Below are positions 24,760-58,721 of a DNA stretch of 64,000 bases, one piece after another. The translations under genes were made by a program, and so were the position numbers. Each line of letters opens with the position of its first letter. Within the stretch, counting starts at the first letter, position 1. The stretch comes from Thermodesulfovibrionales bacterium (GTDB taxonomy: Bacteria; Nitrospirota; Thermodesulfovibrionia; Thermodesulfovibrionales; SM23-35). The stretch covers positions 2,808,356-2,872,355 of the forward strand of contig OY970295.1 in assembly GCA_963716185.1 (NCBI GenBank), in the 5' to 3' direction. Below the pieces are notes generated by a model, which saw only the letters and a program-made list of their open reading frames with translations, ran no database searches and was not told where the DNA came from.

Positions 24760-24833
24760 TGGGGAGTCGTCCAGGGGCAGGACGGCAGACTCTGGATCTG
24801 CTTACAGGGGTTCGAATCCTCTCTCCCCAGCCA
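24760..24833 (+). tRNA. tRNA-Gln (anticodon CTG)
   Basis: Hand-folded cloverleaf: acceptor TGGGGAG/CTCCCCA, D stem GTCC/GGAC, anticodon stem GCAGA/TCTGC with loop CTCTGGA, T arm AGGGG-TTCGAAT-CCTCT, encoded CCA. Confidence 0.9.
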
Positions 24834-24837
24834 ATTC

Positions 24838-24913
24838 GGTCCCATCGTCTAGAGGCCTAGGACGTGGCCCTCTCAAGGCTAAAACACGGGTTCGAATCCC
24901 GTTGGGACCGCCA
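24838..24913 (+). tRNA. tRNA-Glu (anticodon CTC); integration target of the downstream islands
   Basis: Hand-folded cloverleaf: acceptor GGTCCCA/TGGGACC, D stem GTCT/GGAC, anticodon stem TGGCC/GGCTA with loop CTCTCAA, T arm ACGGG-TTCGAAT-CCCGT, encoded CCA. Confidence 0.9.
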
Positions 24914-24926
24914 ATAAAATCAATGA
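24869..24926 (+). repeat. att copy A: 3' 45 nt of tRNA-Glu plus 13 nt downstream (left boundary of island I)
   Basis: The same 58 bp recur perfectly at 37092-37149. Confidence 0.9.
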
Positions 24927-24927
24927 G

Positions 24928-26005
24928 TTATGCCTCATTATAGGCCGCTACATTTAAGGACTGTGCCCCTTTTTGTGCCCCCGACTTCATATCTAATACA
25001 GAAATAGCCTCTCTCAGGTTTTCAACTGAAAGATGAGCATATCTCTGAGTCATGCGGATATCTTTGTGTCCAAGCAATTTTGAGATTGTGTGAAGGTCAA
25101 CGCCTCTTTGTCTGAGATAACTCGCAAAAGTGTGTCTGAGGTCTGAGATCGTGGAAATGAAAGTTTTCTATTCCGGCAACTTCACACGCCTTTTTAAATA
25201 CCCGTTGAAGTTTAACTGGATATATTCTCTTACCGTTGTTGTGGAAGACGAAGTCTTCAATATCCTTTACTTTTTGCATTTCCCTGAATGTCTCAATTGC
25301 TTCAATCGTGAGCGGTAGCCCGATGCTCTCTTTGTTTTTCATTAGAGCGCCCTCGATTACCAAACACCGGGAAAAGAGATTTAGCCATGACCACTTCATG
25401 TTGAGAAGATTTGATTCTCTTAGACCTGTGTTAAGTGCGATTATCACTATAGATTTCAGCCATGCGGGGGCTGTCTTGTCATCGAGAGCATTAAACAGCC
25501 TGCCATATTCATCTTCACTGAGATACCGGACACGCTCATTTTTAACTTGCGGCATTTCGATTGAGTTTACAGGATTGTCCTTGATCCATTTCCATTTTTT
25601 AATGGCGACATTGAACATTCGTTTGAGAAGTCCCATTTCTTTTACTATTGTTGCGGGCATAATCCCCTTGGAATATCTATAACTCTCGTACTCTCCGATA
25701 AGTCTTTCAATGTCCTGTAACTGAGTGTCCTCTCCGAAGTAGGCTTCCAAGTGTTTAAAGATGCTTCTATCCCTTGCCTGATATTGTCTCCTTGAAGTGT
25801 ATTCGGCATCATATTTCTCAATCATCTCTTTTAGCGTTCTTCTTCGAGCCTCAATCCCAAACCATTCGCCTTCTGCAAGTTCATTTAAGACTTTTATCTC
25901 GATTTTTCTGGCAAGTTCCTTACTGCTTGTACCAGTTGACTTTCTTATTAATTTTCCTTGCCATTTAATCTTTATCCACCAGACTCGGCCCCTCTTTAAA
26001 AGCAT
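24928..26005 (-). pseudogene. tyrosine recombinase / phage-type integrase, frameshifted by a 7-bp tandem duplication
   Basis: The track ORF 25097..26005 ends ...HFHDLRPQTHFCELSQTKRR. Deleting one copy of gtctgag (25134-25140 / 25141-25147) restores HDLRHTFASYLRQRGVDLHTISKLLGHKDIRMTQRYAHL..., which carries the catalytic His and Tyr, down to a stop at 24928-24930. Confidence 0.85.
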
Positions 26006-26105
26006 TACATCACCTCCCTCTTGAGGTGGTCTGGTCTCCCTTTACGGGAGTATAAATTGACCTTGCCCCCCAAAACCTCCACGGGGGCAAAAAAAGGATG
26101 AATTT

Positions 26106-26399
26106 GTGAGGGCTATATATTATCTCAGAGAATACTTTGAGCAACTGACAAAAAAACCTCTAATGGGGTTAATTTCTAATATTCTTGATGATACCTTGGC
26201 TGACGCAAACTCAATATGGTATAGAAGAAAAAATAGTGTTGACCTAAATGTCATGGGTATGAATTCTCTTTGTGCAATTCAGAGACAGTATGAATATTAC
26301 AATAACAAGGGTTACATAAAAAAATCATTTGATACAAAGACCCCTTTATGGGAAATAATCAAGGAAAAACACCAAGAGGCAACTGGAAAGCATGATTGA
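26106..26399 (+). CDS. hypothetical protein (GTG start)
   Basis: 97-aa ORF with no recognisable motif. Confidence 0.3.
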   Translation: MRAIYYLREYFEQLTKKPLMGLISNILDDTLADANSIWYRRKNSVDLNVMGMNSLCAIQRQYEYYNNKGYIKKSFDTKTPLWEIIKEKHQEATGKHD

Positions 26400-26457
26400 G
26401 GGAGGTTAGAATGGGCATAACTTATGAAAGACACAAACATGAATTGGTAAAACCATA

Positions 26458-26610
26458 GGACGGAACCCCCCCGCTTGTATGCCTTGCTCAGATTATCGAG
26501 ATTCATGAGAACGATAAACTGTCGGTCAGGGATATTGCAAAACAAACCAAGATACCCCGTTCAACAGTCTTCAGAACAATTAAGCAGTTTAAAGAGGGGG
26601 ATTATTGATA
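26458..26610 (+). pseudogene. fragment of a small helix-turn-helix protein (no usable start codon)
   Basis: Hand translation: ...LAQIIEIHENDKLSVRDIAKQTKIPRSTVFRTIKQFKEGDY*. This is an HTH pattern, but the frame opens right after a stop and has no ATG/GTG/TTG. Confidence 0.4.
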
Positions 26611-27528
26611 AAGAGGGACTCCCCATCAACGGAAATCGTGCTGTCCCAAAAGGCAATACTTTTTCCTGTGTATGAAACCCATGAAAATCGCCATTCCGTG
26701 GCTCCCTAAAAACCTGTCTAACAGGGATTACGTTTTGAGACGGTCAATGGAATTCTTTATACAAAGATTGGGCTGAAAGTTTTTGACTGACTGGCACGGG
26801 GCGGGGAAATGATGAAAAAAGGAAAGATAACGGTATCGAGTATTCCAAAAGACTTATTGCAAAAAATATCGAAAGAAACCCAAGGATGAGAAATTTAGGA
26901 CAATAGAAGAAGAAGGTAGATTTGCCTCTGAGGTTTGGAAGAGATGTTTGCATTATGAGGGGGATCCTATTGATGTGAGTAAATTGCCTAAAGATTATGA
27001 TGTAGATGAATTGAATTATGATCCTGAAACAGTGTACAAACCAAAATTGCGAAAGACTACTAAAAAAATAAGGTACCTACTAAGAAAAAGTGATAAAGCT
27101 GGCAAAGCAAAATAATCAGGTGCCGCAATCTATGCACCACTTCAAAATTTAAGTATCCTCCCCTTTGGTTTGCACAACGAATTCATAATGTTTTCATATT
27201 TTCTTCGCCATTTCTTCATTTTTCCATAGTAATCTAAAGGTAGAAAATAACCTTCAACGTTCTTTCAGTAGCAGCCAGTAATCCCTCCTACTGGCTGCTC
27301 ACTCCTTTTAAACTAGAAATAGCAAATGTTTTTTGCACCCCCTTGAGTTCTCAAGTTTTGATAAAAAGGAAAGGGCATCACACCCAAAAACAAGACATTA
27401 GATCGGCTGGTGCTCTTTAAAGCTATTTTTGAATGTCTTGATAAATAGGACTTGTTATCTCAGACAGCAGCATTATGCCTGTCTCCGCTCTGGGCAGGAA
27501 AGTATCGAAGCCTACCCTACTGAGAAAA

Positions 27529-27879
27529 TTAAGTTTTGTTGATGCCTGAGATAATCCCTTTGGATGCTGAGAGAAATATAGTCTGCTTCTTCTTGTCCAT
27601 GCTTCTGAAAAGGCTTAATATTTCCGCTAACTCGGTTTCGATACCTTTGTCAGTTCTTCCCTGAGATATACTGATAAGATCCGAGAGCGGAATGTCCAGA
27701 GCTTTAGCCACCATATAGAAGCTGTACATAGAGGCATTGACTTTTCCCCGTTCTATGTCGGAAATGTAAGTCGGGTGTAACCCTGAGAGTTCGGCAAGCC
27801 TTTCCTGGGATATCTTCCTTGATTTTCTAACAGCCCTTATTTTGCTGCCAATGGTCTTGAGAAATGTAGTTGTATTCAT
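27529..27879 (-). CDS. XRE-family (Cro/CI-type) HTH transcriptional regulator
   Basis: 116 aa. ISQERLAELSGLHPTYISDIERGKVNASMYSFYMVAKAL. Confidence 0.85.
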   Translation of the reverse strand: MNTTTFLKTIGSKIRAVRKSRKISQERLAELSGLHPTYISDIERGKVNASMYSFYMVAKALDIPLSDLISISQGRTDKGIETELAEILSLFRSMDKKKQTIFLSASKGIISGINKT

Positions 27880-27914
27880 GACTAAGAGGATAGGGGAAAA
27901 ATAGGGGAAATATT

Positions 27915-27956
27915 AATAGTCTATAGTCTATATTCTGCTTGACTTTATAGACTATT
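27915..27956. promoter_or_regulatory. candidate operator: 11-bp perfect inverted repeat in the divergent XRE/28044 intergenic region
   Basis: aatagtctata (27915-27925) and tatagactatt (27946-27956), with an extra gtctata half-site between them and TTGACT (27939-27944) inside the spacer. Confidence 0.55.
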
Positions 27957-28043
27957 TAGGATAATTCAGAAGTGAATGTACCGACAAAGTGGAAACAACT
28001 ATTGTCTTGCAAATATTCAAATAAGTTTAAGGGGAGGATACAA

Positions 28044-28412
28044 ATGAGTCTAAAGAGAATTATTTGCTGCGGACTTGTGCTATGCATTGTTGGATTTCAC
28101 TATACCAACACTGTAATTGCTTCTGAGTCCTTTGTCTTTGGTAAGGCATGTTTAATTCAACCTGAAGAGCGGGACACTAAGAGATCGCCTGAATGTGGGA
28201 TGGAAGAATCACGACCCGAACAACAATCCACCCATGAAGAAATATTTCTGAAATTATTAGGTCTTTACGATTACGCTGCCATCTATGGTTCGGAGGATTT
28301 TCAGGTATTTGGTAAGGATAGAGATAGAGTCCGAGCTTTCTTGATGGTGCAACCCATTTTTTATTATGAAATAAATTATACAAATAAAAGAGGGAAAGAC
28401 ATATCTTTATAG
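28044..28412 (+). CDS. secreted hypothetical protein
   Basis: The ATG at 28044 follows aaggggagga. Signal peptide MSLKRIICCGLVLCIVGFHYTNTVIA. The track ORF starts earlier, at 27972. Confidence 0.5.
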   Translation: MSLKRIICCGLVLCIVGFHYTNTVIASESFVFGKACLIQPEERDTKRSPECGMEESRPEQQSTHEEIFLKLLGLYDYAAIYGSEDFQVFGKDRDRVRAFLMVQPIFYYEINYTNKRGKDISL

Positions 28413-28464
28413 GTGTAAAAAACAAGCCTCAAACTTAGAAAGCTGACAACTTTCAAAAAAATTA

Positions 28465-28650
28465 CTACTCCCCCCCAGCCTGAACAACAACCTTCCTATC
28501 CCTTTCCCGATTATCAAAATCCATGAAGACTATCTGTTGCCATGTTCCTAAAGTCAGTTTCCCTTTGATTATTGGGATTGTCAGGGAATGTGCGTGATGT
28601 CGAGGAAGATGAGGAATAGCATGTTTCTCAACCTGAAAAACACAACTCAC
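28465..28650 (-). pseudogene. C-terminal remnant of a YjbQ/UPF0047-family protein
   Basis: The 61-aa ORF ends ...HAHSLTIPIIKGKLTLGTWQQIVFMDFDNRERDRKVVV, which matches the family's C-terminal third. The N-terminal two-thirds are absent. Confidence 0.55.
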
Positions 28651-28718
28651 CCTTCGGGTAGTGTTAGAGGAAGTTACTGCTTCCTTCCTGTAACAAATGG
28701 GATCAAGAATTGATATAA

Positions 28719-28931
28719 TTGTGCGGAGTAGACATGGTAATAAATGTCGAGCATGAAATCGTCCCTTTTATATGTTCTCAGTGCGGTAAGAGCTTCAGTT
28801 ATGACCGCGGGGGGAAATGTAAAGTATGCAACAAATTGTTTTGTATAAGTCACTTACATCGAACCATCCTCGAAGGCCAGCTAATTTTTCTTTGCAAATC
28901 TTACAAGAAAACCATGAAAGAAAAAGAATAA
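28719..28931 (+). CDS. small zinc-ribbon protein
   Basis: CSQCGK...CKVCNK Cys pairs. The likely real start is the ATG at 28734. Confidence 0.4.
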   Translation: MCGVDMVINVEHEIVPFICSQCGKSFSYDRGGKCKVCNKLFCISHLHRTILEGQLIFLCKSYKKTMKEKE

Positions 28932-28949
28932 CGGCAATAACTCAAAGAT

Positions 28950-29550
28950 AGGTAAGCCACTGGTTTGACCAGTGAGACTATAAAAGGTTTGACCTTGCAG
29001 GATTAAGTAAGATAAACCTCCAGAGAGGCTTGACGGTAGTCAAAGTCTATCTGGAGGTTTATGGATAGTTACAAGAGATTAACACACTCGAAGTACGATT
29101 GTAAGTATCATGTGGTATTTGTTCCCAAAGGTCGGAAGAAAACGCTCTTTGGGAAAATCAGGAAGTATCTGAAGGGAGTATTTCACGAATTGGCGCGGCA
29201 GAAGGGATGCGAGATCATTTCTGGGCACATGGCGATGGATCATGTGCACATGTGTATTTCGATTCCGCCGAAATACTCTGTCTCAGAGGTGATAGGGTAT
29301 CTGAAGGGCAAGAGTGCAATAGCCGTGGCACGGCAATTTGGAGACAAGCAGAGGAATTTCAATGGAGAAAACCTTTGGGCTCGCGGATATGCTGTGTCAA
29401 CGGTTGGCTTTGAGCTGGACAAGATCAAGGAGTACATTGCCCATCAGGAAAAGCTGGACAATGAACAAGAAGAGGGCAGGTTTTAGTATAAACCCAAACG
29501 GCCGTCTTTGAGACGGCTCATAACCGTCAAGCCTCCCTCTTTGAGGGAGT
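28950..29550 (+). mobile_element. IS200-type insertion sequence (tnpA only) with terminal hairpins; boundaries approximate
   Basis: Left hairpin cactggt-ttg-accagtg (28958-28974). An 11-bp stem aaacctccaga/tctggaggttt (29014-29024 / 29050-29060) covers the SD next to the ATG. Right hairpins are gccgtct-ttg-agacggc (29501-29517) and ctccctc-ttt-gagggag (29533-29549). Confidence 0.8.
29061..29486 (+). CDS. tnpA: IS200/IS605-family Y1 (HUH) transposase TnpA
   Basis: 141 aa. YDCKYHVVFVPKGRKK, HMAMDHVHMCISIPPKYS (HUH) and WARGYAVSTVG (catalytic Y). Confidence 0.92.
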   Translation: MDSYKRLTHSKYDCKYHVVFVPKGRKKTLFGKIRKYLKGVFHELARQKGCEIISGHMAMDHVHMCISIPPKYSVSEVIGYLKGKSAIAVARQFGDKQRNFNGENLWARGYAVSTVGFELDKIKEYIAHQEKLDNEQEEGRF

Positions 29551-29553
29551 GTT

Positions 29554-29772
29554 ATGACTATCTTTGCTTTCGATGAAGGACAAGGGTTAAGTGAGCATAC
29601 TGCACCCTTTGATGCAATGGTCAATGTCATTGACGGTGAAGTAAAAATTATTATTTCGGGGAAGGATGACCTACTGAAGGAGGGGGAGTTTATTATAATG
29701 CCAGCAAATGAACCTCATTCCTTAAAGGCTGTAAAAAGGTTTAAAATGATCTTAACTATGATCAGGTCTTAA
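29554..29772 (+). CDS. cupin-domain protein, apparently N-terminally truncated
   Basis: 72 aa. EHTAPFDAMVNVIDGEVKIIISGKD...MPANEPHSLKA is the cupin_2 core. It begins 4 nt after the IS200 right hairpin. Confidence 0.55.
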   Translation: MTIFAFDEGQGLSEHTAPFDAMVNVIDGEVKIIISGKDDLLKEGEFIIMPANEPHSLKAVKRFKMILTMIRS

Positions 29773-29812
29773 ATCGTACAAGCGACAAATAAAAGAAATA
29801 TAGGTAGCCAAG

Positions 29813-30376
29813 ATGAACGATGAAGAAAAAACGAAAGAACAACTCATAAATGAATTGAAAGAATTGCGTGACGAACTTGCTTTTTTTAGAGCATTAAGTT
29901 CCGAAAAGATGCAAATTACAAGGGTATTAGAGGATTTTAAGGAGATATACGAGAATTTCTATAAATCCAATCCGCATCCAATGTGGATTTATGACCTCGA
30001 AACTCTCGCCTTTCTTGATGTCAACGATGCAGCTATAAAACATTATGGTTATTCACGGAAAGATTTTCTTTCTATGACCATCGAGGATATTCGCCCACCT
30101 GAAGATATCCCAGCACTTCTTGAAAATATCACAAAGGTTACTAAAGGGCTTGATGTAGCTGGCACATGGAGGCATATTAAAAAGGACAGAACTTTAATCT
30201 ATGTAGAAATCATCTCTCACACGCTGACTTTTGCAGGGAAGAAGGCTGAAATAGTTATGGCATTTAATGTCACCGAAAGAAAGCAGATGGAAAAAGAACT
30301 GAATGACTATAAGCAAAAATATGGTGAATTGCACCCTCCGTCTGATAACGATAATTTTATTGGTGGTTTAGCCTGA
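29813..30376 (+). CDS. coiled-coil + PAS domain protein without an output domain
   Basis: 187 aa. PAS core PHPMWIYDLETLAFLDVNDAAIKHYGYSRKDFLSMTIEDI...VTERK. No kinase or effector domain follows. Confidence 0.6.
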   Translation: MNDEEKTKEQLINELKELRDELAFFRALSSEKMQITRVLEDFKEIYENFYKSNPHPMWIYDLETLAFLDVNDAAIKHYGYSRKDFLSMTIEDIRPPEDIPALLENITKVTKGLDVAGTWRHIKKDRTLIYVEIISHTLTFAGKKAEIVMAFNVTERKQMEKELNDYKQKYGELHPPSDNDNFIGGLA

Positions 30377-30416
30377 AGATTGGTACTGCTTAATCTCGAC
30401 TTTATCGGACATTGTC

Positions 30417-30623
30417 ATGGCGATATGGGAAAAGGAAGTATCAAGATTCGATTGGCATTATAATGTGACCGAAGAATGTTACCTACTAAAGGGAAAAGTT
30501 GTTGTGGAGAGAAAGGACGGGAAGGTCGAATTCGGAGCTGGGGATTTCGTGACATTCCCTGCTGGGCTGTCTTGTGTATGGGATATAAAGGAACCTATTA
30601 GGAAACATTATAATTTCCGTTAG
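30417..30623 (+). CDS. small cupin (DUF861/cupin_3-like)
   Basis: 68 aa. EECYLLKGKVVVERKDGKVEFGAGDFVTFPAGLSCVWDI. Confidence 0.55.
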   Translation: MAIWEKEVSRFDWHYNVTEECYLLKGKVVVERKDGKVEFGAGDFVTFPAGLSCVWDIKEPIRKHYNFR

Positions 30624-30760
30624 TCTGATAGAATCAAAGGGGGATGGATGACCAATAAATGCGGGATAGAGATTTATAAATAAAATTGCCCTGAGTAAAG
30701 GGTTTAGAGAAAAATATGATGAGTAGAAGACAGACATGGAGTGACAATCAGTAATTTATT

Positions 30761-31951
30761 ATGATGATAAGGAAATCACTACTTTTAAAAATATTTGATG
30801 CAGCATATATGCAGAGATGGAATGATAAAGTTCGACCTGTAGAATTAAGCGAATTAGATAAACAGGCTCATAAGATGCTTATTGCATATTTCTTAGGTAA
30901 ATTTGATGAAGATTCAAAGGGGTTTAGCTGGATAGAGATTATTGAGGGTGGTATCTTTGAACTTTTACAACGACTTGTTATTACTGATTTAAAACCACCA
31001 ATTTTTTATAAGATAAAAGCAGACCCCATTAAATATAGACAACTCAATGAATATGTTTATGGAGAACTGGAATCTATAATATCACCTCTTGGCAAAGATT
31101 TTTGTCGAAAGTTTAAAGACTATTTTACAAATTCAAAGGAGAACCTAAATCAAAGAATTCTTGCTGCTGCTCATTTTTATGCTACCAAATGGGAGTTCGA
31201 TATTATAGAGCGTTCAAATCCTAATGGATACGAGATAGCCCAAATAAAGGAACGACTCCAGAAAAAACAGGAAGAATACTATGATTTAAAAGGCATGGAT
31301 CAATTGACTAACAATATAAAGTATAGAGATTTCATTGATCTGTGTGGTCAACTTAGATTTCAGCAAAGATGGTCTAATTTCCACAGAATACCTAAAACCT
31401 CAGTCATAGCCCATTCATTATTTGTTGCAATATTGTCCTATTTATTCTCCCTTTCAATAAACGCTTGTAAAAAAAGGTCTGTAAATAATTATTTCACTGG
31501 CTTATTTCATGACCTGCCTGAAGTGTTAACAAGGGACATTATATCACCTGTAAAAAGATCTATTGAAGGATTAGTGGACTTAATAAAGGAGTATGAAAAA
31601 GAGCAGATGAGGATAGAGGTTTATGGTTTGATTCCGAAGGAATGGCATAAAGAAATAAGAATGTTTACTGAAAATGAGTTCGAAAATGTTGTAACTATAA
31701 ATCAGAAACTAACTAAAACTACAAGCAAAGAAATGAACCATAAATATAATGTTGATAAATATAATCCGAGAGATGGAGACATTGTCAAGGCAGCCGATGA
31801 CCTCGCTGCATTTATTGAAGCTTATTCAGCGATAAGGAATGGGAGTTCGCATGAGCAACTCCACGAAGCAAAAATGTCCATTAAAAGCAACTATGATAAG
31901 GCAAGTGTTTCAGGAATCAACTTTGGTGAAATATATGCCGATTTTGATTAA
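30761..31951 (+). CDS. HD-superfamily hydrolase, YfbR-like (5'-deoxynucleotidase fold) with a degenerate N-terminal repeat
   Basis: 396 aa. The C-terminal half aligns by eye to YfbR: LRFQQRWSNFHRIPKTSVIAHSLFVA, GLFHDLPEVLTRDIISPVK, IVKAADDLAAFIEA. The N-terminus repeats the first motif (YMQRWNDKVRPVELSELDKQAHKM) but lacks the HD dyad. Confidence 0.6.
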   Translation: MMIRKSLLLKIFDAAYMQRWNDKVRPVELSELDKQAHKMLIAYFLGKFDEDSKGFSWIEIIEGGIFELLQRLVITDLKPPIFYKIKADPIKYRQLNEYVYGELESIISPLGKDFCRKFKDYFTNSKENLNQRILAAAHFYATKWEFDIIERSNPNGYEIAQIKERLQKKQEEYYDLKGMDQLTNNIKYRDFIDLCGQLRFQQRWSNFHRIPKTSVIAHSLFVAILSYLFSLSINACKKRSVNNYFTGLFHDLPEVLTRDIISPVKRSIEGLVDLIKEYEKEQMRIEVYGLIPKEWHKEIRMFTENEFENVVTINQKLTKTTSKEMNHKYNVDKYNPRDGDIVKAADDLAAFIEAYSAIRNGSSHEQLHEAKMSIKSNYDKASVSGINFGEIYADFD

Positions 31952-32089
31952 AGTAAAATCATTTAAGAATTAGATAGGCAAGCTTAATTGGAGGATTAAA
32001 TGAATGCAGAACGAGATAAGATATAAATCAATGTGTGAATTAATATGGTTTGTAACCGGGATTGATAATCTTTTATACGATTAACTGTT

Positions 32090-32386
32090 ATGTCTATAAA
32101 GGAATTTATAGCCTTAAGGGAAGATATTGACAAGCTTATTGAGGAGACAAGAGATTGGATTCATAAAAAATCAATTACAAAATCTTGTAACCGAATCGAA
32201 AAATGCACTGAATTGCTCAATAGTCTCAATAGCTTGGCATCAGGTGATGTTCAAAATAGAGTGGTTTCAAATAGAAGAAATGAAATTGAATATTTAGCTA
32301 AACAGCTTGATGGAATATTATCAAAAAAAGAGGCAGGCAAAAAGGAGGATGGAAATATTGCCAATAAGAGCAAAAGACTAACATAG
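32090..32386 (+). CDS. hypothetical coiled-coil protein
   Basis: 98-aa ORF with no recognised motif. Confidence 0.35.
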   Translation: MSIKEFIALREDIDKLIEETRDWIHKKSITKSCNRIEKCTELLNSLNSLASGDVQNRVVSNRRNEIEYLAKQLDGILSKKEAGKKEDGNIANKSKRLT

Positions 32387-32395
32387 TAAAACAAA

Positions 32396-50818: not shown

Positions 50819-51341
50819 GATTTTAATCCTTTCCTTAGTAAGGTATTTTTTTAAAGCCACCGACAAGATCGTTGGTAGTTTACTTACTCTTTCCTTTTGT
50901 TTTCGCCGCTGGAGTTTTCTTTTCCAAAGACTTGATATAGGCAACTATATCTTTCATTTCTTGCGATTTTGTATCAAGGGCTTACCCTTTTAATTCATTT
51001 ACAATACAAGTGTTTATAGACTCTTTCACCTCATCTCCTTTCATCATAGGATTAGTGCTATAACCCTGTCAGAAAATTAGGAAAGCCGAACTTATAAAGT
51101 TTATCCTTCAGTTGCAATATACATGCCCGAACAAAACTTGTTGCTTTTATTGAGAATTAAAAAGAAAGAGTTGTATTTCTGCCAGGGAAAATACCCGACT
51201 AATAGGGCATTTTACCCCAAATAATGTAATAAACAATATTGTTGTCTATTTGTCTATGGTTGAAATCTTTACAGATTAGGGAGAATCTATAAATCATACT
51301 TTAGTAAGGAACTCATACAAAAGTTTTTTTGAGAAGATAAC

Positions 51342-52489: not shown

Positions 52490-52522
52490 CATAAAATAAT
52501 GCGAAAAAAAACGACTAAATCA

Positions 52523-52597
52523 TTGTAGTGGCCTCCTGTGTTGGATAAAATGGCGTTGCATGACATCTAAAATATCCAACACAGGAGGCCACTACAA
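52523..52597. repeat. 25-bp perfect inverted repeat with a 25-nt spacer
   Basis: ttgtagtggcctcctgtgttggata (52523-52547) and tatccaacacaggaggccactacaa (52573-52597). Confidence 0.9.
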
Positions 52598-52700
52598 GTG
52601 AATTTTAGCATAACATGCGGACGACACCTTCTTGGGTCTCGCACGGCCTGGCATCTTCTCTCCAGAGCAGACAAGGGCACGCCCCAATAAAGTGCCTTCC

Positions 52701-53666
52701 TTAGGCCCTCGCCTCACGCCGCGCGAGGATCAGCCCGGGCGCCATGGGCAGCCAGAAGGTGAAGAAGCGGAAGAGTAGTGTCGCCGCGAGAGCGGCGGCG
52801 ACCGGCACTCCGATGAGCTTGAGCGTGGCCACGGAGACGGCCTCGAAAACCCCAAGCCCCCCAGGAACTACTCCAAGCGTCCGCGCCAACGTCGAGAGCA
52901 TGAAGCTCGCAAAGACTGGCGCTGGATTGACCGTAAGACCGAGGGCCCACAGCATGACCCAGAGTGTCCCCGCATCGAGAACGAGGATCGCGAGCTGGAG
53001 GCCCGTGCACCGCGTGATGAGCGAGACATCGTGAGCAATGGCTGGCGTCGCCTCACCAAGCACTCGAAGTGCTGGCCTGATGAAGGGTAGCCGCTCGATC
53101 CAACCGGGCAGCGTCCGGCCGCGGCTCACCCACAGGAGGGCCATGGGAACGGCTGTTGCCAGGGGCGCGAAGATGCCCGCTGGCACGGCCATCAACGGTG
53201 TGAGGTCGCCGTGTACCCAGACGATACTGAGAGCGATGCCCAGAGCCAGAGTGTAGGCGGCGTAGTAGCTCACGAGATCGATGACGACCGCGGCCATACT
53301 TGCGCCACGCGGCACGTCGTGGCGGTCCAGTGCCCGGATGACGAGCAACGTGCCGCTCAGGCCAACGCTGGGAATGGCCTGGTCCATGAAGAGCTTCGAC
53401 AGCCCCAAACCGACATAGGACCGGAACGGCCTCGATATATTCGCGCGGCAAAGGACTCGCTGCCAGATCAGGGCGTCCGTCATGTAGGTTCCAATCTGGA
53501 GCAAGAGGGCGACGAGCAGCCAAGCAGGCCGAGCGTGGAGCATGAGCTGAGCGAAGGCCATCTCCTGGCTGTAGTGTGTGGCGAACATCACCACGGCGAC
53601 CAGGAGGCCCAGCCCAAAGAACCACGAGACCCAACGGGCGATAGCCTTTGGTCGACCCACTGTCAT
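52701..53666 (-). CDS. UPF0104 / lysyl-phosphatidylglycerol-synthase-TM-like flippase-type membrane protein
   Basis: 321 aa with ~8 TM helices, in a very GC-rich segment. The family call is from overall pattern only. Confidence 0.55.
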   Translation of the reverse strand: MTVGRPKAIARWVSWFFGLGLLVAVVMFATHYSQEMAFAQLMLHARPAWLLVALLLQIGTYMTDALIWQRVLCRANISRPFRSYVGLGLSKLFMDQAIPSVGLSGTLLVIRALDRHDVPRGASMAAVVIDLVSYYAAYTLALGIALSIVWVHGDLTPLMAVPAGIFAPLATAVPMALLWVSRGRTLPGWIERLPFIRPALRVLGEATPAIAHDVSLITRCTGLQLAILVLDAGTLWVMLWALGLTVNPAPVFASFMLSTLARTLGVVPGGLGVFEAVSVATLKLIGVPVAAALAATLLFRFFTFWLPMAPGLILARREARA

Positions 53667-53914
53667 CGTAAGCCCACAAGTCCAAGCAAGCGCCCAATAA
53701 CCGTCGTAACGGCCATATCGAAGCCGGCACCGACAACAGTTCGAATTGTTGCATGGCGGGTGTCCACCTCGGCGTGCGTGAGCCCTGTTTCTGGGTTCAC
53801 GCGGTGCTCCGCGAGCGCGTCGGAGACCGGCACGAAAGCGATATCGGGCTCCCTATCCGTTGCCGGCTTCGAGGTCGGGCTTTCCACTACGGATTTCTTT
53901 GTGACTGTTTGCAT
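53663..53914 (-). CDS. hypothetical protein (possibly a remnant of a cation-ATPase N-terminus)
   Basis: 83 aa. ...LAEHRVNPETGLTHAEVDTR resembles Cation_ATPase_N. The stop overlaps the downstream start (ATGA). Confidence 0.3.
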   Translation of the reverse strand: MQTVTKKSVVESPTSKPATDREPDIAFVPVSDALAEHRVNPETGLTHAEVDTRHATIRTVVGAGFDMAVTTVIGRLLGLVGLR

Positions 53915-53919
53915 AGTGA

Positions 53920-54053
53920 CTATCCTCCGATTCTTGTTACACCGACCACCACGGGGAAGCCGTGGTCGGCCATGTTCAGCAGGAGATACGCCCTATGACG
54001 CCCAAGCCGATTATGCCGATTTCATGTCCTGGTTGTGGACGCTTATTCGTCAT
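53920..54053 (-). pseudogene. N-terminal fragment of 6-phosphogluconate dehydrogenase (frameshifted)
   Basis: Hand translation: MTNKRPQPGHEIGIIGLGVIGRISC*, then in the next frame LLLNMADHGFPVVVG. Together these give the GxGxxG NAD-binding start of Gnd. Confidence 0.5.
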
Positions 54054-54072
54054 TGTTTTGCCTTCCGTAAGA

Positions 54073-54430
54073 TCAGCGCTGCCACAGGATCCGAGAAGCT
54101 TCCAGGGGAACCGTAACGCCGTCGTAGGACGGTATCACTCGCGCCGTATAGTCCTTAGATAGACGTGCCGTAGGCACCTGCGCGCTATAAACATAGTCGC
54201 TAGCCGTGCCTGCCAAGTGCAGGACACGCGTCATCTAATGCCGCACCGGATCGCCGCCGTTGACATTGCAGGAGAAGATATCTGGATAGAAGAAGAATTT
54301 CTCAAACGGGATGATCTGCCAGCCATTGCTTTAAGAGAGGCAATGGAGAGTTTTTCGGATCATGCGTTCCGAACGTGCAATCCTCACTTCGTCAGCATAA
54401 AGGTCGACTCGCACTGCATTCGAGTCGAGG
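54073..54430 (-). pseudogene. decayed 3' end of an alpha-glucan phosphorylase-like gene
   Basis: Hand translation on the minus strand, interrupted by stops: LDSNAVRVDLYADEVRIARSERM..., ...GGDPVRH*, ...YVYSAQVPTARLSKDYTARVIPSYDGVTVPLEASRILWQR*. Recalled as the C-terminal signature of that family. Confidence 0.4.
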
Positions 54431-54827
54431 TAAGAGAAGGTTTCAGCGGAGTTGGTTTCTTTTTGGCTATCATTAGTTCCTTTTATAAAAAGCAATTTTA
54501 TCACAAAGCATATTCATTTTCAAATTTTTTCTCCCTGTCCGGTTAGACATCAGCTACACCTAAAAATGAAGAAATATGTTTGGTGATTTACGTTTGAATT
54601 GCCGTATCGCAACCTGAAGTTCAAATATATATTTATGTACGTACATCACTCTCGCACCGGGGCATCGCATTGTGAGTTATTTTCAGTAATCAGCAGGGGA
54701 CGGAAATCTAAAAAACATTTAGTACTATGAGTTATGAGCAATAATTTCAAACAATTACTTGCGCGTAGTTGAAGGGGGACCTATGAACAATAGGTAAAAA
54801 GGAAAGCGATATTAGCCTTTAAGATAA

Positions 54828-55100
54828 TCATGAGTGCCGATCGATAAGTCTGCCTGATAAAAATTTATGTATAATGCTTGATACCAGTGTCTGATAGGGT
54901 ATTCCTTCCTCTATAGCCTTTACCTTTAAGGCGTCAAGGTCTTTTTTAGCTATACGGATATTCATACGCTGGTCTTTTGTTATGGTCGCTCTTGCATACG
55001 CTTTTGACCTTTTTATTTCTTCCTTCAGGTTGGGAATGGTCTTCCACTCATCTTTCTCAAGCGATTCCATCAATTCCTTTTCTTCTTTTGTCAGTTTCAT
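54828..55100 (-). CDS. brnA: BrnA-type (CopG/RHH) antitoxin
   Basis: 90 aa. ...DQRMNIRIAKKDLDALKVKAIEEGIPYQTLVSSIIHKFLSG. Confidence 0.7.
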   Translation of the reverse strand: MKLTKEEKELMESLEKDEWKTIPNLKEEIKRSKAYARATITKDQRMNIRIAKKDLDALKVKAIEEGIPYQTLVSSIIHKFLSGRLIDRHS

Positions 55101-55381
55101 TTTTGCTCTCCTTCCCTCCGCAGATATTTCTGGGTATATTTGCGGCTTGGGAATATTGTCTTTAAAAAACGCACCCCTCTTCTATCTTCGAAGGGTACTA
55201 CATATGCATAGTCGTCAACATCAATGACGTAGAGCTTTTGATCACTGTATTTCATCCTGGTTGGATGTTCCAGGATATCAAGTATACGGTCATTTAAAAT
55301 AAGAAACACAATTTGCTCAAATGAAATGCCTCGCTCCCTCTTGAGGTGCTCATTCTTGTCGTTGTCCCAATCAAAAACCAC
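55097..55381 (-). CDS. brnT: BrnT-type (DUF497) ribonuclease toxin
   Basis: 94 aa. MVFDWDNDKNEHLKRERGISFEQ... The stop overlaps the brnA start by 4 nt. Confidence 0.7.
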   Translation of the reverse strand: MVFDWDNDKNEHLKRERGISFEQIVFLILNDRILDILEHPTRMKYSDQKLYVIDVDDYAYVVPFEDRRGVRFLKTIFPSRKYTQKYLRREGEQK

Positions 55382-55635
55382 GATAATATGATAATCCTTT
55401 ATGTGTGCCTTTTGTCAATACAATAATTCAGCATAAGAGCTCCGAGTCCCCTCTGTTTGTGAATCAGGTAGACCTACTGAATCTCATAAACGCACCGTGA
55501 AGAAAACGTGAAGTAAACATATCTAAAACGATATAAACATATCGAAACATATAGAAGAGGGGAGGGCGGTGAAAAGCTTAATCTGCAAGGGTTTTTCCGG
55601 TATTTTCAAGCACTTGTCAGATCCTGCCTTTAACT

Positions 55636-55689
55636 CTCTCAAGGCTAAGACACTGGTTCGAATCCCGTTGGGACCGTCAAGCAAAATTC
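55636..55689 (+). repeat. att copy C: decayed repeat of the tRNA-Glu 3' segment (island II / III junction)
   Basis: ctctcaaggctaaGacacTggttcgaatcccgttgggaccgTca has 3 substitutions in the tRNA-derived part, and the tail has diverged. Confidence 0.8.
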
Positions 55690-56054
55690 TTAATAATTAC
55701 GGTATCTTTCCTTATTTAAAACCATTCTACGGAATGCTAAGAAATTCGTCGAATGAGTATTCATTTTGGTGTTTTTGTTGGTGTTTTAGAAATAGCGGCT
55801 CCAGTCGAGTCTGGTGATGACTTCTTAGCTTTTGGGGACGACGTGGGGATGACGTAGCGTCGTCTTCAGAGATGAGTGCACGGCTACGGACAGTGAACGA
55901 TTAAGTCCTGTCTGCTCGTCTCTTTACGAAAGGAACACCTCTTCCTCACATTGACCGATGTAATTAACACCTCCTACAAGCAGAGAATTTTATAAATCGG
56001 GGGACTTATTTATTTCCAAAAGAATATTTGGTATAAAGCTGAGTTTCAGAATAC

Positions 56055-57038
56055 TTAAGTGCTACCCTCTCTATCACGAATTGTGAAGTAAAAAGTCGAA
56101 CCTTTTCCAGGTTTAGACTCTACCCAGATTCTTCCTCCATGATGTTCTACGATTTTCTTACAGACTGCAAGTCCTATGCCGGTGCCTTGATATTCGTTTC
56201 TTGTATGTAATCGCTGGAAGAGTGAGAATATTCGTTCAAAAAATCTCGGCTCTATTCCAATGCCGTTATCCTTAATAGGGAAAACCCATTCATCTCCTTT
56301 CTGTTCGGCTGAGATATGGATTTTTAGGGGTTCATTGCCACGAAACTTAATAGCATTGCCTATTAAGTTCTGGAATAATCGGCTTAATTGAGAAGCATCT
56401 GCCGTTACAGTTGGCAGGAGATCATATGTCAGTTCTACATTGCTTTCTTTTATAACTGTGCGAAGATTGTAAATAGCCTCCTCTAAGGCTACTGAGCAAT
56501 TTATAGGTCTAAAGTTTTGTCTCTTTGTCTCTACCTGTGAATACGTCAGCAGATCTTTAATGAGTAGTTCCATTATTTTGACACCTGAAACTATATAATC
56601 AATGAACTCATCAGCTTTTTCATCGAGTTTGTCTTTGTATCGTTTCTCCAGTAATTGCACAAAGCTCGCTATAGTACGTAAGGGTTCCTGTAGGTCATGT
56701 GAGGCTACATAGGCAAATTGTTGGAGATCGGCATTCGACCGAGCCAGTTCCTTCATTAATATCTTCGACTGCTCCTCCGCCTGCTTGCGTTTTGTGATAT
56801 CTCGAATGTTGCATTGGATAACTCTGTTGCCATTCACAAGATAAACGTTACTGACAAACTCCACGTTGATGTTACGACCGTCTTTTGTTTCAAGCGGCAA
56901 ATCTTCATAACGGATATAACCTTTCTTTTGCAATTCTGAAAAAGCATTCTGTGATGACACAATATCTTTAAAAAGACCGATTTCCCAGAGTTTCTTTCCC
57001 AAAAACTCCTCATGAGGTAATACACTATCGATTTCCAT
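56055..57038 (-). CDS. PAS - HisKA - HATPase histidine kinase (cytoplasmic)
   Basis: 327 aa. H-box YVASHDLQEPLRTI, N-box NLIGNAIKF, G-boxes DNGIGI...GTGIGL. Confidence 0.88.
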   Translation of the reverse strand: MEIDSVLPHEEFLGKKLWEIGLFKDIVSSQNAFSELQKKGYIRYEDLPLETKDGRNINVEFVSNVYLVNGNRVIQCNIRDITKRKQAEEQSKILMKELARSNADLQQFAYVASHDLQEPLRTIASFVQLLEKRYKDKLDEKADEFIDYIVSGVKIMELLIKDLLTYSQVETKRQNFRPINCSVALEEAIYNLRTVIKESNVELTYDLLPTVTADASQLSRLFQNLIGNAIKFRGNEPLKIHISAEQKGDEWVFPIKDNGIGIEPRFFERIFSLFQRLHTRNEYQGTGIGLAVCKKIVEHHGGRIWVESKPGKGSTFYFTIRDREGST

Positions 57039-57182
57039 TTACATGCTGCATCTTATTAAGTATATAGCTGAGTTGACAAGGAAGAAGATGAGACTTGGTC
57101 TTTCTATGTCTGATAGGGCGAGTCCTATCTTCTATATTTTCTATAAAAAAGGAGCTTATTGGCCGGGCTCGCTCAATACAAA

Positions 57183-58286
57183 TCAATTTAGATGTGAACT
57201 AAATATTTCATCAAAACGGAAAGCTATTTGGGTGAATGCATTCAAAACAGCAGGGTTAAAGTGCTGTGGCATTGTCCTTCCGTCTCCCTCCGTAATGGTT
57301 CTGAAAGCTTCTTCATGACTCAAAGGAGGCTTGTACGGTCGTTTACTTCTGAGAGCGTCATACTGGTCTACAAGCATAACTATCCTGCCTTCAAGCGGTA
57401 TCTCGTCCTCCATCAACCCTCTCGGATACCCTCCGCCACACCATCTTTCATGATGATTTAATGCAATGGATGCTGCCAACTGTATTATCGGATTCGATGA
57501 ATCTGCCAATATCTTGCTTCCGAGGGTAGTATGTGTTTTCATTGTCTCAAACTCTTCCACTGTCAGACTGCCTGGTTTTAAGAGTATATTGTCAGGTATC
57601 CCGAGTTTCCCTATATCGTGCAGCGGGGCCGCGAGGATTATTGTCTCGACCAAATCATTATCTGAGTCCAGAGCTCTGGCAATTTCCCTTGAATAGTATC
57701 CTATCCGAGCAATATGGGCACCCGTATCAGTATCCCTGAATTCAGCAGTTGTGGATAACCGCTGTATAATCTCTAAGCTCATGTTTTTGACAGTAGATAC
57801 GGCATCAGCCAATTCATTCGTTCTAAGCATAACAGTATCTTCCAGGGTATTTTGATAATTATTTTGAGTCTCTGTTTTTTTGTAATAGTGAATAGCTTTC
57901 TCTATGACACGGATAAGATTGGCTGACTTATACGGCTTTGTAACGAAATCAAAGGCACCTCGTTTTATCGCATCGACAGCAATATCAAGTTCCGCATATG
58001 CAGTCATTAAAATTACCGGGATTTCAGGTTTAACATTATGGATCTTCTCAAGAAGCTCGATACCTGACACCACAGGCATCCTGATATCTGTCAGTACAGT
58101 AACAATTCTATTGTCTTGTAATTTATTGATGGCATCTTCTGCGTTTTCACAAGTGATAACTGACAAGCTATGGGATCTGATCAATGAGGAAACAGCTTCA
58201 AGAACATCGATATCATTATCTACAACAAGGATCTTTCCTTCTGTGTTGGTACTTATTAATTCCGGCATTTTCTTCACTTCTCTCAA
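57183..58286 (-). CDS. response regulator with HD-GYP output domain (RpfG-like)
   Basis: 367 aa. REC (ILVVDNDID...VLTDIRMP) followed by HD-GYP ([11 protein letters not shown]...[14 protein letters not shown]). Confidence 0.88.
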
Positions 58287-58667
58287 AAGCTTTTATCAGC
58301 AATTCGATTATCTTTCCTTCTCTCAAGTTACTCTTAGTTTCAGCGCATACGGGAAAAATGTCAATCCTACCGGGGTAGGGATGGTCGAGGCCCTTCTTAA
58401 CTTAAGACTTGGTAAATTCGTTATCTATTTTTATTTGTACTCGTGAGAATTGTCGCAGGCGCAAGGGGTGTTTGTAACAGAAAGGAAGGAGGTATTATTG
58501 AAAAAAAGATCTTGATTGGTGTCATTTTCGAGCCGAACTAATTTAGGTCGTACTCGATCCCACCGCATCGCCTCAGTTAAAAAGGATGCTGCGACGCAAC
58601 TGGCCCTTTTGGTGTTTTTTGGGTGTCACTACTTATAACTAATTGATAAATAAAGAATGGCGAAGCT

Positions 58668-58721
58668 CTCTCAAGGCTAAAACGCGGGTTCGAATCCCGT
58701 TGGGACCGCCAATAAAATCAA
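58668..58721 (+). repeat. att copy D: 54-bp repeat of the tRNA-Glu 3' segment, 1 mismatch (island III / IV junction)
   Basis: ctctcaaggctaaaacGcgggttcgaatcccgttgggaccgccaataaaatcaa. Confidence 0.88.

What the first reader, a model, noticed from the sequence alone, without database searches (positions are those of the whole stretch)
24760..58721. Four copies of the tRNA-Glu 3' segment delimit a head-to-tail array of integrated elements
The att copies:
- The last 45 nt of tRNA-Glu(CUC) plus 13 nt of flank (58 bp, 24869-24926) recur perfectly at 37092-37149.
- They recur with one mismatch at 58668-58721.
- They recur in decayed form at 55636-55689.
- All copies lie in the same orientation.
- A tyrosine integrase gene ends 2 nt after the first copy.

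The bounded segments:
- They measure 12.2, 18.5 and 3.0 kb, and a fourth is still open at 62.5 kb.
- They contain IS elements, TA modules, pseudogenes and compositionally foreign patches.
- My single-line spot counts give about 30% GC at 31021-31080 and about 63% GC at 53041-53100.
- Uninterrupted housekeeping genes stop at the tRNA.

This is the signature of serial site-specific integration into one tRNA. Decay of the att copies is not monotonic with distance: copy C is worst and copy D is nearly intact. That implies different ages, secondary-site use or rearrangement.
Basis: partly seen in the sequence, partly recalled or inferred. Interest (0 to 1): 0.8.

Follow-up and report, generated by a model that had tools for sequence, protein, structure and literature searches.

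The report
Stacked decayed islands at tRNA-Glu
Four copies of the tail of a tRNA-Glu gene mark where about four related mobile DNA elements inserted one behind another in an uncultured Thermodesulfovibrionales bacterium; none keeps a working integrase, so this is a real but ordinary pile-up of genomic islands.

Summary
tRNA-Glu(CUC) lies at 24838-24913. Its last 45 nt plus 13 nt of flank (24869-24926) recur at 37092-37149 (58/58) and at 58668-58721 (53/54). A decayed copy lies at 55636-55689. All copies are on the + strand and there are no others.

The serial-integration reading is supported.
- The adjacent integrase belongs to a family whose members at 53% identity or more sit next to tRNA-Glu(CUC) wherever a tRNA is visible.
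- An intact 10.6-kb relative has the same att repeat.
- Elements 1 and 2 each carry a private 7-mer dyad, about +36 nt inside the left att and 140-147 nt before the right att. The intact relative has a matching layout.
- Synteny with relatives stops at the tRNA, and tetranucleotide usage changes there.

Amendments:
- Integrase 1 is a pseudogene, frameshifted by a 7-bp duplication.
- Integrase 2 is a remnant of about 35 codons. Element 3 has none. Element 4 has two scraps.
- No xis or primase survives, so the array is a fossil.
- The non-monotonic att decay is 3 versus 1 substitutions (p=0.62) and says nothing about age.
- No empty site was found.

This is a new member of a known kind (tandem accretion) and of low interest.

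The parts
24760..24833 (+). tRNA-Gln(CUG), 4 nt upstream of tRNA-Glu; the pair is conserved in relatives
24838..24913 (+). Intact tRNA-Glu(CUC), the integration target (attL of element 1). It is 100% identical to the gene in relatives L011 and L040.
24869..24926 (+). att copy A: from the anticodon loop to the tRNA 3' end, plus 13 nt of flank (AATAAAATCAATGA)
24928..26005 (-). Tyrosine integrase pseudogene of element 1. A 7-bp tandem duplication (CTCAGAC, 25134-25147) shifts the frame at the HxxR box. The repaired product is 356 aa and 81% identical to the intact homologue P0001.
24962..24982 (+). P'-arm dyad of element 1 (TGTGCCCC-TTTT-TGTGCCCC), +36 from att A, inside the codons of the integrase C-terminal tail
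24927..37091 (.). Element 1 (12.2 kb, 38.8% GC). It holds the int pseudogene, an Xre HTH, an IS200 transposase, cupin and PAS fragments, an HD-domain protein and two SEC-C-motif proteins. It has no xis, no primase and no phage structural genes.
36944..36964 (+). P-arm dyad of element 1, identical to the P' dyad, 147 nt before att B. It is followed at 36991-37026 by four tandem 9-mers (TAGACACNN).
37092..37149 (+). att copy B (58/58 to A): attR of element 1 and attL of element 2
37151..37270 (-). Integrase C-terminal remnant of element 2 (...LAHLNVDSLRSAMSKLNFTFSSRLDEKIQAETL*), with its stop codon 1 nt after att B
   Evidence: read against the family alignment
37185..37202 (+). P'-arm dyad of element 2 (CGTGAAG-AAAA-CGTGAAG), +36 from att B
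37150..55635 (.). Element 2 (18.5 kb). It holds Nramp in three pieces (37717-38965), an orphan nuoB, a PLD-family protein, phosphoketolase, a P-type ATPase, an M50 protease, a CAAX protease, YflT, an IS630 transposase and a 61% GC patch with an LPG-synthase-TM gene. Its GC is core-like, but its tetranucleotide correlation to the core is only 0.46-0.75.
54828..55381 (-). BrnA-like and BrnT-like pair at the right end of element 2. It is 87.5% identical in DNA to a pair that follows the tRNA-Glu remnant in relative L011.
55496..55513 (+). P-arm dyad of element 2, identical to its P' dyad, 140 nt before att C. It is followed at 55515-55553 by three AAACATATC/A repeats.
55636..55689 (+). att copy C (decayed): 3 substitutions in 44 nt and a diverged flank. 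It is attR of element 2.
55690..58667 (.). Segment 3 (3.0 kb, 40% GC): a histidine kinase (56055-57038) and a response regulator with an HD domain (57183-58286). It has no integrase remnant. The only candidate arm repeat is TTTTGGTGTTTTT, at 55764 and 58607.
58668..58721 (+). att copy D (53/54 to A): attL of element 4
58760..58777 (+). P'-arm dyad of element 4 (TGTAGCA-GATT-TGTAGCA), +39 from att D. It has no partner in the window, so the distal end lies beyond 64 kb.
58722..64000 (.). Element 4 (open at the window end).
- A possible integrase tail of about 22 codons next to D.
- A candidate antitoxin ORF (58826-59044, no Pfam match) next to a RelE-like toxin that appears split by an IS4 element (transposase 59259-60965; toxin C-terminal part 61060-61335).
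- An integrase box-II scrap (RMTQRYAH, 61383-61433, minus strand).
- BrnA (61429-61617) with a truncated BrnT.
- A PIN toxin (61884-62306).

Best explanation
The window shows a tandem array of at least three, probably four, integrative elements of one family. They entered the same tRNA-Glu(CUC) gene of a Thermodesulfovibrionales (Nitrospirota) chromosome by tyrosine-integrase site-specific recombination.

How integration works (inferred from the anatomy):
- Each element's attP carries a copy of the tRNA from the anticodon loop to the 3' end, plus about 12 nt.
- Recombination at the left edge of this block rebuilds the tRNA from element DNA.
- The old 3' part is displaced to the far end of the element.
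- Repeated events therefore leave a row of same-orientation tRNA 3' fragments.

Shown directly:
- The four att copies.
- An integrase pseudogene abutting the tRNA.
- An integrase remnant abutting copy B.
- Element-specific arm dyads pairing A with B and B with C.
- The tRNA-Glu specificity of the family, and the same layout in an intact 10.6-kb relative.
- The break in synteny and composition at the tRNA.

Inferred:
- The dyads are arm-type integrase binding sites.
- The tRNA-proximal element 1 arrived last and the distal ones earlier, because backbone decay increases with distance.
- The array is now immobile. Every integrase is broken or gone and no xis or primase remains.
- TA modules and IS elements are what has persisted or accumulated.
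For: The repeats are exact and non-random.

The integrase:
- It hits PF00589 plus N-terminal SAM-like domains.
- The repaired reading frame has HDLRHTF, LLGH and RYAH motifs.
- It is 81% identical to the uninterrupted 357-aa homologue P0001.
- The 7-bp duplication is also present in an independent Logan unitig of run ERR12035932.

Family specificity:
- Homologues at 53-75% identity in loci L073, L075-77, L078, L158-161 and L163 all end a few nt to a few tens of nt from tRNA-Glu(CUC). So do the C-terminal remnants in L107 and L129.
- These loci lie in at least three chromosomal contexts: LemA-TPM, TIM-SecG and NrdR-SHMT.
- Relatives at about 40% identity use tRNA-Ala and other tRNAs instead.

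Intact reference element L158/L160:
- attL and attR match 55/56 and lie 10,569 bp apart.
- It carries int, an HTH_17 xis (called in L160) and a Prim-Pol/DnaB_C gene.
- Its dyad TGTGATAGATT x2 lies 49 nt past the tRNA 3' end, and recurs about 159 nt before attR.

Arm dyads in the window:
- The only exact 7-mer dyads that recur anywhere in the 64 kb are GTGCCCC-N5 (24963 and 36945) and CGTGAAG-N4 (37185 and 55496).
- They lie +36/+37 after the left att and 147/140 nt before the right att.
- Copy D has TGTAGCA-N4 at +39.

Other support:
- Integrase remnants follow B and lie inside element 4.
- Synteny with L011, L040 and L073 ends at the tRNA.
- Tetranucleotide correlation to the core is 0.85-0.93 left of the tRNA and 0.46-0.84 right of it.
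- Tandem arrays bounded by repeats of a tRNA or tmRNA 3' end are a described phenomenon (PMC3146451; PMC5812530).
Against: - No relative with a demonstrably empty tRNA-Glu site was found. L011 has a remnant, L040's contig ends 9 nt after the tRNA, and L073 is occupied.
- Segment 3 has no integrase remnant, and only a weak, differently placed candidate arm repeat. It could be a leftover piece of a neighbour rather than an element of its own.
- The right end of the array is outside the window.
- No read-level or circular-junction data are available.
- No protein-DNA evidence supports the arm-site role of the dyads.
- The source is a metagenome-derived 3.59-Mb contig whose reads I cannot inspect.
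Confidence: 0.85

Rival explanations
1. The array was acquired en bloc. The elements accreted in another host and arrived as a single unit through the outermost att sites, rather than by serial integration in this chromosome.
For: Accretion followed by co-mobilisation of tandem islands is documented for other systems (PMC3146451). Nothing in the window dates the individual events.
Against: - The arm dyads are heterotypic: TGTGCCCC at A, CGTGAAG before C and TGTAGCA after D. An outer-site excision would therefore pair non-cognate arms.
- Backbone decay is graded from element 1 outwards.
- A and B match 58/58 while C is decayed, which fits separate events.
Confidence: 0.07
2. The array is still mobile. 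Segments 2-4, and element 1, behave as cis-mobilisable elements that are excised in trans by an intact cognate integrase and xis encoded elsewhere in the genome.
For: - att A, B and D are intact or nearly so.
- The dyad pairs of elements 1 and 2 are perfectly conserved, 19/19 and 18/18.
- Cis-mobilisable elements (att sites only, recombinase supplied in trans) are a recognised category (PMC3146451).
- A unitig from the window's own sample breaks inside att A.
Against: - No intact integrase, xis or primase homologue is present in the 64 kb.
- Each element has a different dyad type, so several different helper integrases would be needed.
- The unitig break is expected from the repeat alone.
Confidence: 0.06
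3. The row of att copies is an assembly artefact. Different strains carry different islands at tRNA-Glu, and the assembler concatenated them at the shared 58-bp repeat.
For: The source is a metagenome. Unitigs from the window's own sample end at the repeat and at tRNA-Gln, and a strain variant exists at this locus.
Against: - The contig is 3,585,087 bp. That size implies long reads, which span a 58-bp repeat easily.
- The cognate arm dyads sit on the correct sides of B and C, as expected for genuine attR/attL hybrids.
- The flanks of the att copies are unique sequence.
Confidence: 0.02

Closest known systems
Dehalococcoides ssrA genomic islands (McMurdie et al. 2011, PMC3146451)
   Same: - Multiple tandem islands lie downstream of one small-RNA gene.
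- Each is bounded by a direct repeat of the gene's 3' end.
- The integration module sits next to attL on the reverse strand.
- Some units lack a module and are read as cis-mobilisable or fixed relics.
   Different: - The target there is tmRNA (T-loop) with a 20-bp repeat, and the integrase is a serine recombinase.
- Here the target is tRNA-Glu(CUC) from the anticodon loop, with a 56-58-bp repeat and a tyrosine integrase.
- No module survives intact in this window.
Tandem accretion and CIMEs of ICESt1-related elements in Streptococcus thermophilus (Pavlovic et al. 2004, as cited in PMC5812530); SXT/R391 tandem arrays at prfC
   Same: Site-specific integration next to a resident element yields same-orientation att copies. 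Internal units keep att sites but lose their recombination genes (title and citations seen; the mechanism is from my own knowledge).
   Different: Those elements are conjugative or mobilisable, and their targets are protein-coding genes. No relaxase or conjugation gene was detected in the window.
tRNA-gene integration with crossover in the anticodon loop (Williams 2002, Nucleic Acids Res 30:866; my own knowledge, not read here)
   Same: The identity block starts at the first base of the anticodon loop. It runs through the 3' end so that the tRNA is rebuilt.
   Different: The crossover position is inferred only from where identity begins. It was not mapped.
Lambda-type attP with arm-type integrase sites (established knowledge)
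   Same: Short direct repeats, distinct from the core, lie on both arms at fixed distances. Further tandem repeats lie between the P-arm site and the core, where Xis sites lie in lambda.
   Different: - Binding is untested.
- The P' dyad lies inside the codons of the integrase's own C-terminal tail.
- Family members share the core but differ in dyad sequence.

Membership tests
Tyrosine recombinase / phage integrase family (PF00589) | Catalytic domain with the conserved Arg, His-x-x-Arg, His/Trp and Tyr motifs | tested here: met
   PF00589 E=5e-23, plus SAM-like N-terminal domains. The repaired frame shows TGLRES, HDLRHTF, LLGH and RYAH. As encoded, the gene is frameshifted before the His/Trp and Tyr, so it is a pseudogene.
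tRNA-integrated genomic island | Integrase gene adjacent to the 3' end of a tRNA gene | tested here: met
   The integrase stop codon lies 15 nt after the tRNA-Glu 3' end.
tRNA-integrated genomic island | Direct repeat of the tRNA 3' segment at the distal boundary | tested here: met
   Copies B, C and D.
tRNA-integrated genomic island | Absent from, or different in, related genomes (break of synteny at the tRNA) | tested here: met
   L011, L040 and L073 share the upstream genes. What follows the tRNA differs in L011 and L073, and L040's contig ends there. A truly empty site was not seen.
tRNA-integrated genomic island | Deviating base composition | tested here: met
   GC is 38.8% in element 1 against 46.9% in the core. 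Tetranucleotide correlation drops from 0.85-0.93 to 0.46-0.84.
tRNA-integrated genomic island | Excision to a circular form with attP, and restoration of attB | not testable with these tools
   No reads or experiments are available.
Tandem array formed by accretion | Three or more att copies in one orientation, each interval with its own recombination module or remnants of one | tested here: met
   There are four copies. Elements 1, 2 and 4 have integrase remains and their own dyads. Segment 3 has none, so the count of elements is 3 to 4.
Cis-mobilisable element (CIME) | Functional att sites at both ends, no recombination or transfer genes, mobilised by a related element in trans | tested here: inconclusive
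   The structure fits element 2 (att plus both dyads, no integrase) and segment 3. No helper integrase is present in the window, and function is not testable.
Integrative conjugative or mobilisable element (ICE/IME) | Relaxase and/or type IV secretion genes | tested here: not met
   Pfam scans of the ORFs of 80 aa or more, plus most smaller ones, found none. The only related hit is a borderline TrbK match, just below the Pfam cutoff, on an 83-aa ORF.
Prophage | Capsid, terminase, tail or lysis genes | tested here: not met
   The PHROGs scan of element 1 gave only a repressor-type HTH and an HD protein of unknown function. Elements 2-4 were not scanned against PHROGs; their Pfam scans show no phage structural genes. 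The integrase family has no close relatives in IMG/VR (38% identity or less).

The most novel reading that the evidence does not exclude
The tRNA-Glu(CUC) elements of Thermodesulfovibrionales (int, xis and Prim-Pol backbone) may form a family that shares one core att site but has diversified its arm-type sites. Seen so far are TGTGCCC, CGTGAAG, TGTAGCA, TGTAACC and TGTGATA, always as an 11-12-bp-phased dyad. One copy is embedded in the codons of the integrase's own C-terminal tail. The integrase N-terminal domain evolves fast alongside. Such heterotypic arms would make co-resident elements recombinationally independent. That would explain how several related elements can stack at one tRNA without excising each other.
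Probability: 0.3. Interest if true: 0.45.

Novelty: new member of a known kind. Interest (0 to 1): 0.25.

Why it matters
The window documents a tRNA-Glu(CUC)-specific integrase family, and its integration hotspot, in a little-studied uncultured lineage (Thermodesulfovibrionales).

It also gives a clean anatomical example of how such elements decay:
- The recombination genes are lost first.
- The att sites and arm repeats outlast them.
- TA modules and IS elements persist or accumulate.

For annotation, it flags about 39 kb right of the tRNA as horizontally acquired, largely pseudogenised DNA. It does not open a new question. Tandem accretion at tRNA and tmRNA genes is well described.

Tried and rejected
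- **Empty-site control.** A genome-contig scan with the upstream TPM protein gave 71 loci. Of the 27 closest that I scanned for tRNAs, only L011 and L040 have the tRNA pair after the operon, and neither is an empty site.
- **Source contig.** Exact look-ups returned only short Logan unitigs, so I could not walk past 64 kb.
- **A fifth att copy or tRNA-Gln fragments.** None were found.
- **Integrase, xis or Prim-Pol homologues elsewhere in the window.** Only the scrap at 61383-61433 turned up.
- **Cargo shared with other family loci.** Only the BrnTA pair is shared, with L011.
- **Known defence systems in element 1.** PADLOC and NCBIfam gave nothing beyond SEC-C motif matches.
- **Prophage reading.** Rejected.
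- **Dispersed-repeat reading.** Rejected: the copies start exactly at the anticodon loop, occur only here, and are followed by integrase remains.
- **tRNA-Gln strain variant.** A search with its 42-aa recombinase fragment found no homologue.
- **Programmed frameshift in the integrase.** Considered and rejected by inference: there is no slippery heptamer, and homologues are uninterrupted.

Full report
**Observation**

ARAGORN finds tRNA-Gln(CUG) at 24760-24833 and tRNA-Glu(CUC) at 24838-24913. Rfam agrees and finds no other RNA family in the window.

The 58-bp block 24869-24926 begins one base before the anticodon loop. It contains the last 45 nt of the tRNA plus 13 nt of flank. Its copies are:
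- 37092-37149 (B), a 58/58 match.
- 58668-58721 (D), a 53/54 match.
- 55636-55689 (C), with three substitutions in the tRNA part and a diverged flank.

No shuffled control gave any match. A sensitive blastn found no fifth copy. All copies are on the + strand, and start-to-start spacings are 12223, 18543 and 3032 bp.

**The integrase next to copy A**

The ORF 25097-26005 (minus strand, 302 aa) hits PF00589 but stops inside the domain. Reading the sequence shows a 7-bp tandem duplication, CTCAGAC-CTCAGAC, at 25134-25147. It lies exactly at the His-x-x-Arg box.

Removing one copy restores a 356-aa protein that continues through LLGH and RYAH. Its stop codon is at 24928-24930, 2 nt after the repeat. 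The repaired protein is 81% identical to an uninterrupted 357-aa homologue, P0001.

An independently assembled unitig from run ERR12035932 is 100% identical over 24897-26063, including the duplication. Its contig ends inside the att repeat. The lesion is therefore real, and the integrase lacks its catalytic tyrosine.

**Host and neighbourhood**

The genes left of the tRNA are ordinary chromosomal genes: starch synthase, MoeA, glutamate-5-kinase-like, ClpB-like and LemA-TPM-TPM.

The upstream TPM protein finds relatives only in Nitrospirota/Thermodesulfovibrionales and Thermodesulfobacteriota MAGs. I scanned the 27 closest loci for tRNAs. Only L011 and L040 keep the order TPM, tRNA-Gln, tRNA-Glu, and their tRNA-Glu is 100% identical to the window's. 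Synteny with these two loci ends at the tRNA.

**The integrase family is specific for tRNA-Glu(CUC)**

Homologues at 53-75% identity, together with two C-terminal remnants, all end a few nt to a few tens of nt from a tRNA-Glu(CUC) that is preceded by tRNA-Gln(CUG). The loci are L073, L075-77, L078, L107, L129, L158-161 and L163. They lie in at least three chromosomal contexts: LemA-TPM, TIM-SecG and NrdR-SHMT. Relatives at about 40% identity sit next to tRNA-Ala, Pro or Val instead.

L073 is particularly informative. It has the same LemA-TPM-TPM-tRNA context as the window, but a different element: a 61% identical integrase, HTH_17 and Prim-Pol genes, and cargo that includes a DNA methylase, an HD-CE protein and Vsr. 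The site is thus a recurrent hotspot with variable content.

**An intact reference element**

In L158/L160 the tRNA-Glu 3' block recurs 10,569 bp away with 55/56 identity. It starts at the first base of the anticodon loop and ends 12 nt past the tRNA. Between the two copies lie an intact 356-aa integrase, an HTH_17 excisionase-type gene (called in L160) and a Prim-Pol/DnaB_C gene.

A tandem dyad, TGTGATAGATT x2, lies 49 nt after the tRNA end, inside the integrase tail codons. It recurs about 159 nt before the distal att.

**The same architecture in the window**

I listed every exact 7-mer dyad with a 3-6-nt spacer in the 64 kb. Only two kinds recur:
- GTGCCCC-N5-GTGCCCC at 24963 and 36945.
- CGTGAAG-N4-CGTGAAG at 37185 and 55496.

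Each pair lies +36/+37 nt after a left att copy and 147/140 nt before the next att copy. Copy D is followed at +39 by TGTAGCA-N4-TGTAGCA. That dyad has no partner in the window, so element 4 must end beyond 64 kb.

Tandem 9-mers lie between each P-arm dyad and the core: TAGACACNN x4 at 36991-37026 and AAACATATC/A x3 at 55515-55553. By analogy with lambda-type attP sites, I read the dyads as arm-type integrase sites and the 9-mers as possible Xis sites. This is inference only.

The dyads prove that A pairs with B and B pairs with C as the two ends of distinct elements. That is the strongest internal evidence for a true tandem array.

Other family members carry dyads at the same position: TGTAAC-type in L073, L075, L107 and L129, and TGTGCCCC in L078, whose integrase is 75% identical to that of element 1. 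The N-terminal 60 residues are the most divergent part of the integrase, at 32-58% identity among non-sister pairs against 55-71% for the catalytic domain. The sample is small.

**State of the other elements**

- After copy B, the minus strand encodes ...LAHLNVDSLRSAMSKLNFTFSSRLDEKIQAETL*. This aligns with the integrase tail, and its stop lies 1 nt after the repeat. Nothing upstream of it is integrase-like.
- After copy D there is a possible tail of about 22 codons.
- A box-II scrap (RMTQRYAH) lies at 61383-61433. It is separated from copy D by a candidate antitoxin ORF (no Pfam match), a RelE-like toxin and an IS4 element that appears to split that toxin.
- Segment 3 (C to D) holds only a histidine kinase and a response regulator with an HD domain. 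It has no integrase trace and only a weak candidate arm repeat.
- No homologue of the family's xis or Prim-Pol genes exists anywhere in the window.

The cargo is littered with fragments:
- Nramp in three pieces with two frameshifts.
- An orphan nuoB.
- A 98-aa 2-Hacid_dh fragment and PAS and cupin fragments.
- A truncated BrnT.

Three IS transposases are present: IS200, IS630 and IS4. Element 1 has no phage structural genes and no recognised defence system. The family is absent from IMG/VR at more than 38% identity.

**Composition**

Element 1 is 38.8% GC against 46.9% for the core. Element 2 has core-like GC (48.3%), but its tetranucleotide usage correlates with the core at only 0.46-0.75. 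Core windows correlate at 0.85-0.93 with the rest of the core. The change occurs at the tRNA.

**Order and age**

Backbone decay increases with distance from the tRNA. Element 1 has one lesion. Element 2 keeps about 35 integrase codons. Segment 3 keeps none, and element 4 keeps scraps. This fits insertion of each newcomer into the functional tRNA, which pushes older elements outward (inference).

It carries no information about age. If the crossover is at the anticodon loop, the 3' part and flank of each copy come from the attP of the element on its right. The odd flank of copy C may then be the native sequence of segment 3 rather than decay.

**Comparison with known systems**

Rows of islands bounded by repeats of the 3' end of a tRNA or tmRNA gene are well described. 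Some of their units lack recombination genes. Examples are the Dehalococcoides ssrA islands (PMC3146451), the ICESt1-related accretion and the SXT/R391 arrays cited in PMC5812530, and the Klebsiella asn tDNAs (PMC4891358).

The present case is a new member of that kind, in a new lineage and with a newly delineated integrase family. The only mildly new angle is the shared core with heterotypic arm dyads, one of them inside the integrase's own tail codons. That might let related elements stack without cross-excision. It is untested.

**Limits**

- No empty site was found.
- The array's right end lies outside the window.
The 3.59-Mb contig length and the correctly sided cognate dyads argue against one.

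**Verdict**

The structure is ordinary and decayed. Interest is 0.25.

Noticed in passing
window 24797/24798 (inside the tRNA-Gln anticodon loop); L166:1511-1687; L165: A contig from another sample (SRR28002944) is 99.5% identical over window 23271-24797. It diverges exactly inside the tRNA-Gln(CUG) anticodon loop and runs into the C-terminus of a different tyrosine recombinase (…LLGHKHLSTTEIYAKV…SSGS*). A unitig from the window's own sample ends at the very same base. This suggests a second integration or rearrangement hotspot 75 nt upstream of the tRNA-Glu one, or a strain variant in which tRNA-Gln is split.
   Followed up: partly
window 54827-55470; L011:11915-12559: The BrnA-like and BrnT-like pair at the right end of element 2 is 87.5% identical in DNA to a pair in relative L011. 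There it directly follows a tRNA-Glu-adjacent integrase remnant and a TGTGATA dyad. That is far more conserved than the flanking core genes (TPM protein 64% aa). The TA module seems to travel with, or outlive, elements of this family.
   Followed up: partly
window 30761-31951 (+): A 396-aa HD-domain protein (HD_3/YfbR-like C-terminal half) lies in the 33% GC core of element 1. It matches phrog_30941 (unknown function) over its full length, E=2.5e-85.
   Followed up: no
window 32782-35853 (+): A four-gene run in element 1 starts and ends with proteins that carry an N-terminal SEC-C metal-binding motif (466 aa and 253 aa). The first also has an Xre/MbcA/ParS-type antitoxin C-terminal domain. The two genes between them (104 and 197 aa) have no family match. 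This could be an unrecognised TA or defence-like module.
   Followed up: no
window 58826-61335: An IS4-family element (568-aa transposase, 59259-60965) appears to sit inside the toxin gene of a RelE-type TA module. The toxin N-terminal part starts near 59047 and the C-terminal part lies at 61060-61335. The split is read from the six-frame translation; only the C-terminal part has a (weak) RelE Pfam match.
   Followed up: partly
window 52523-52597 and 52600-54200: A perfect 25-nt inverted repeat with a 25-nt loop lies just after the IS630 transposase gene. Next to it is a 61% GC patch carrying an LPG_synthase_TM gene, the most GC-rich stretch of the window.
   Followed up: no
window 39162-39803 (-): A solitary nuoB (NADH-quinone oxidoreductase subunit B, E=9e-73) has no neighbouring nuo genes inside element 2.
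   Followed up: no
window 62500-64000: The last 1.5 kb of the window has no convincing ORF and no family hits. It looks like degraded or non-coding DNA.
   Followed up: no
L158:1-561 (HicA/HicB next to attR): In the intact reference element's locus, a HicAB TA pair lies immediately outside attR. This is again a TA module sitting right next to an att copy, as in L011 and in the window.
   Followed up: no
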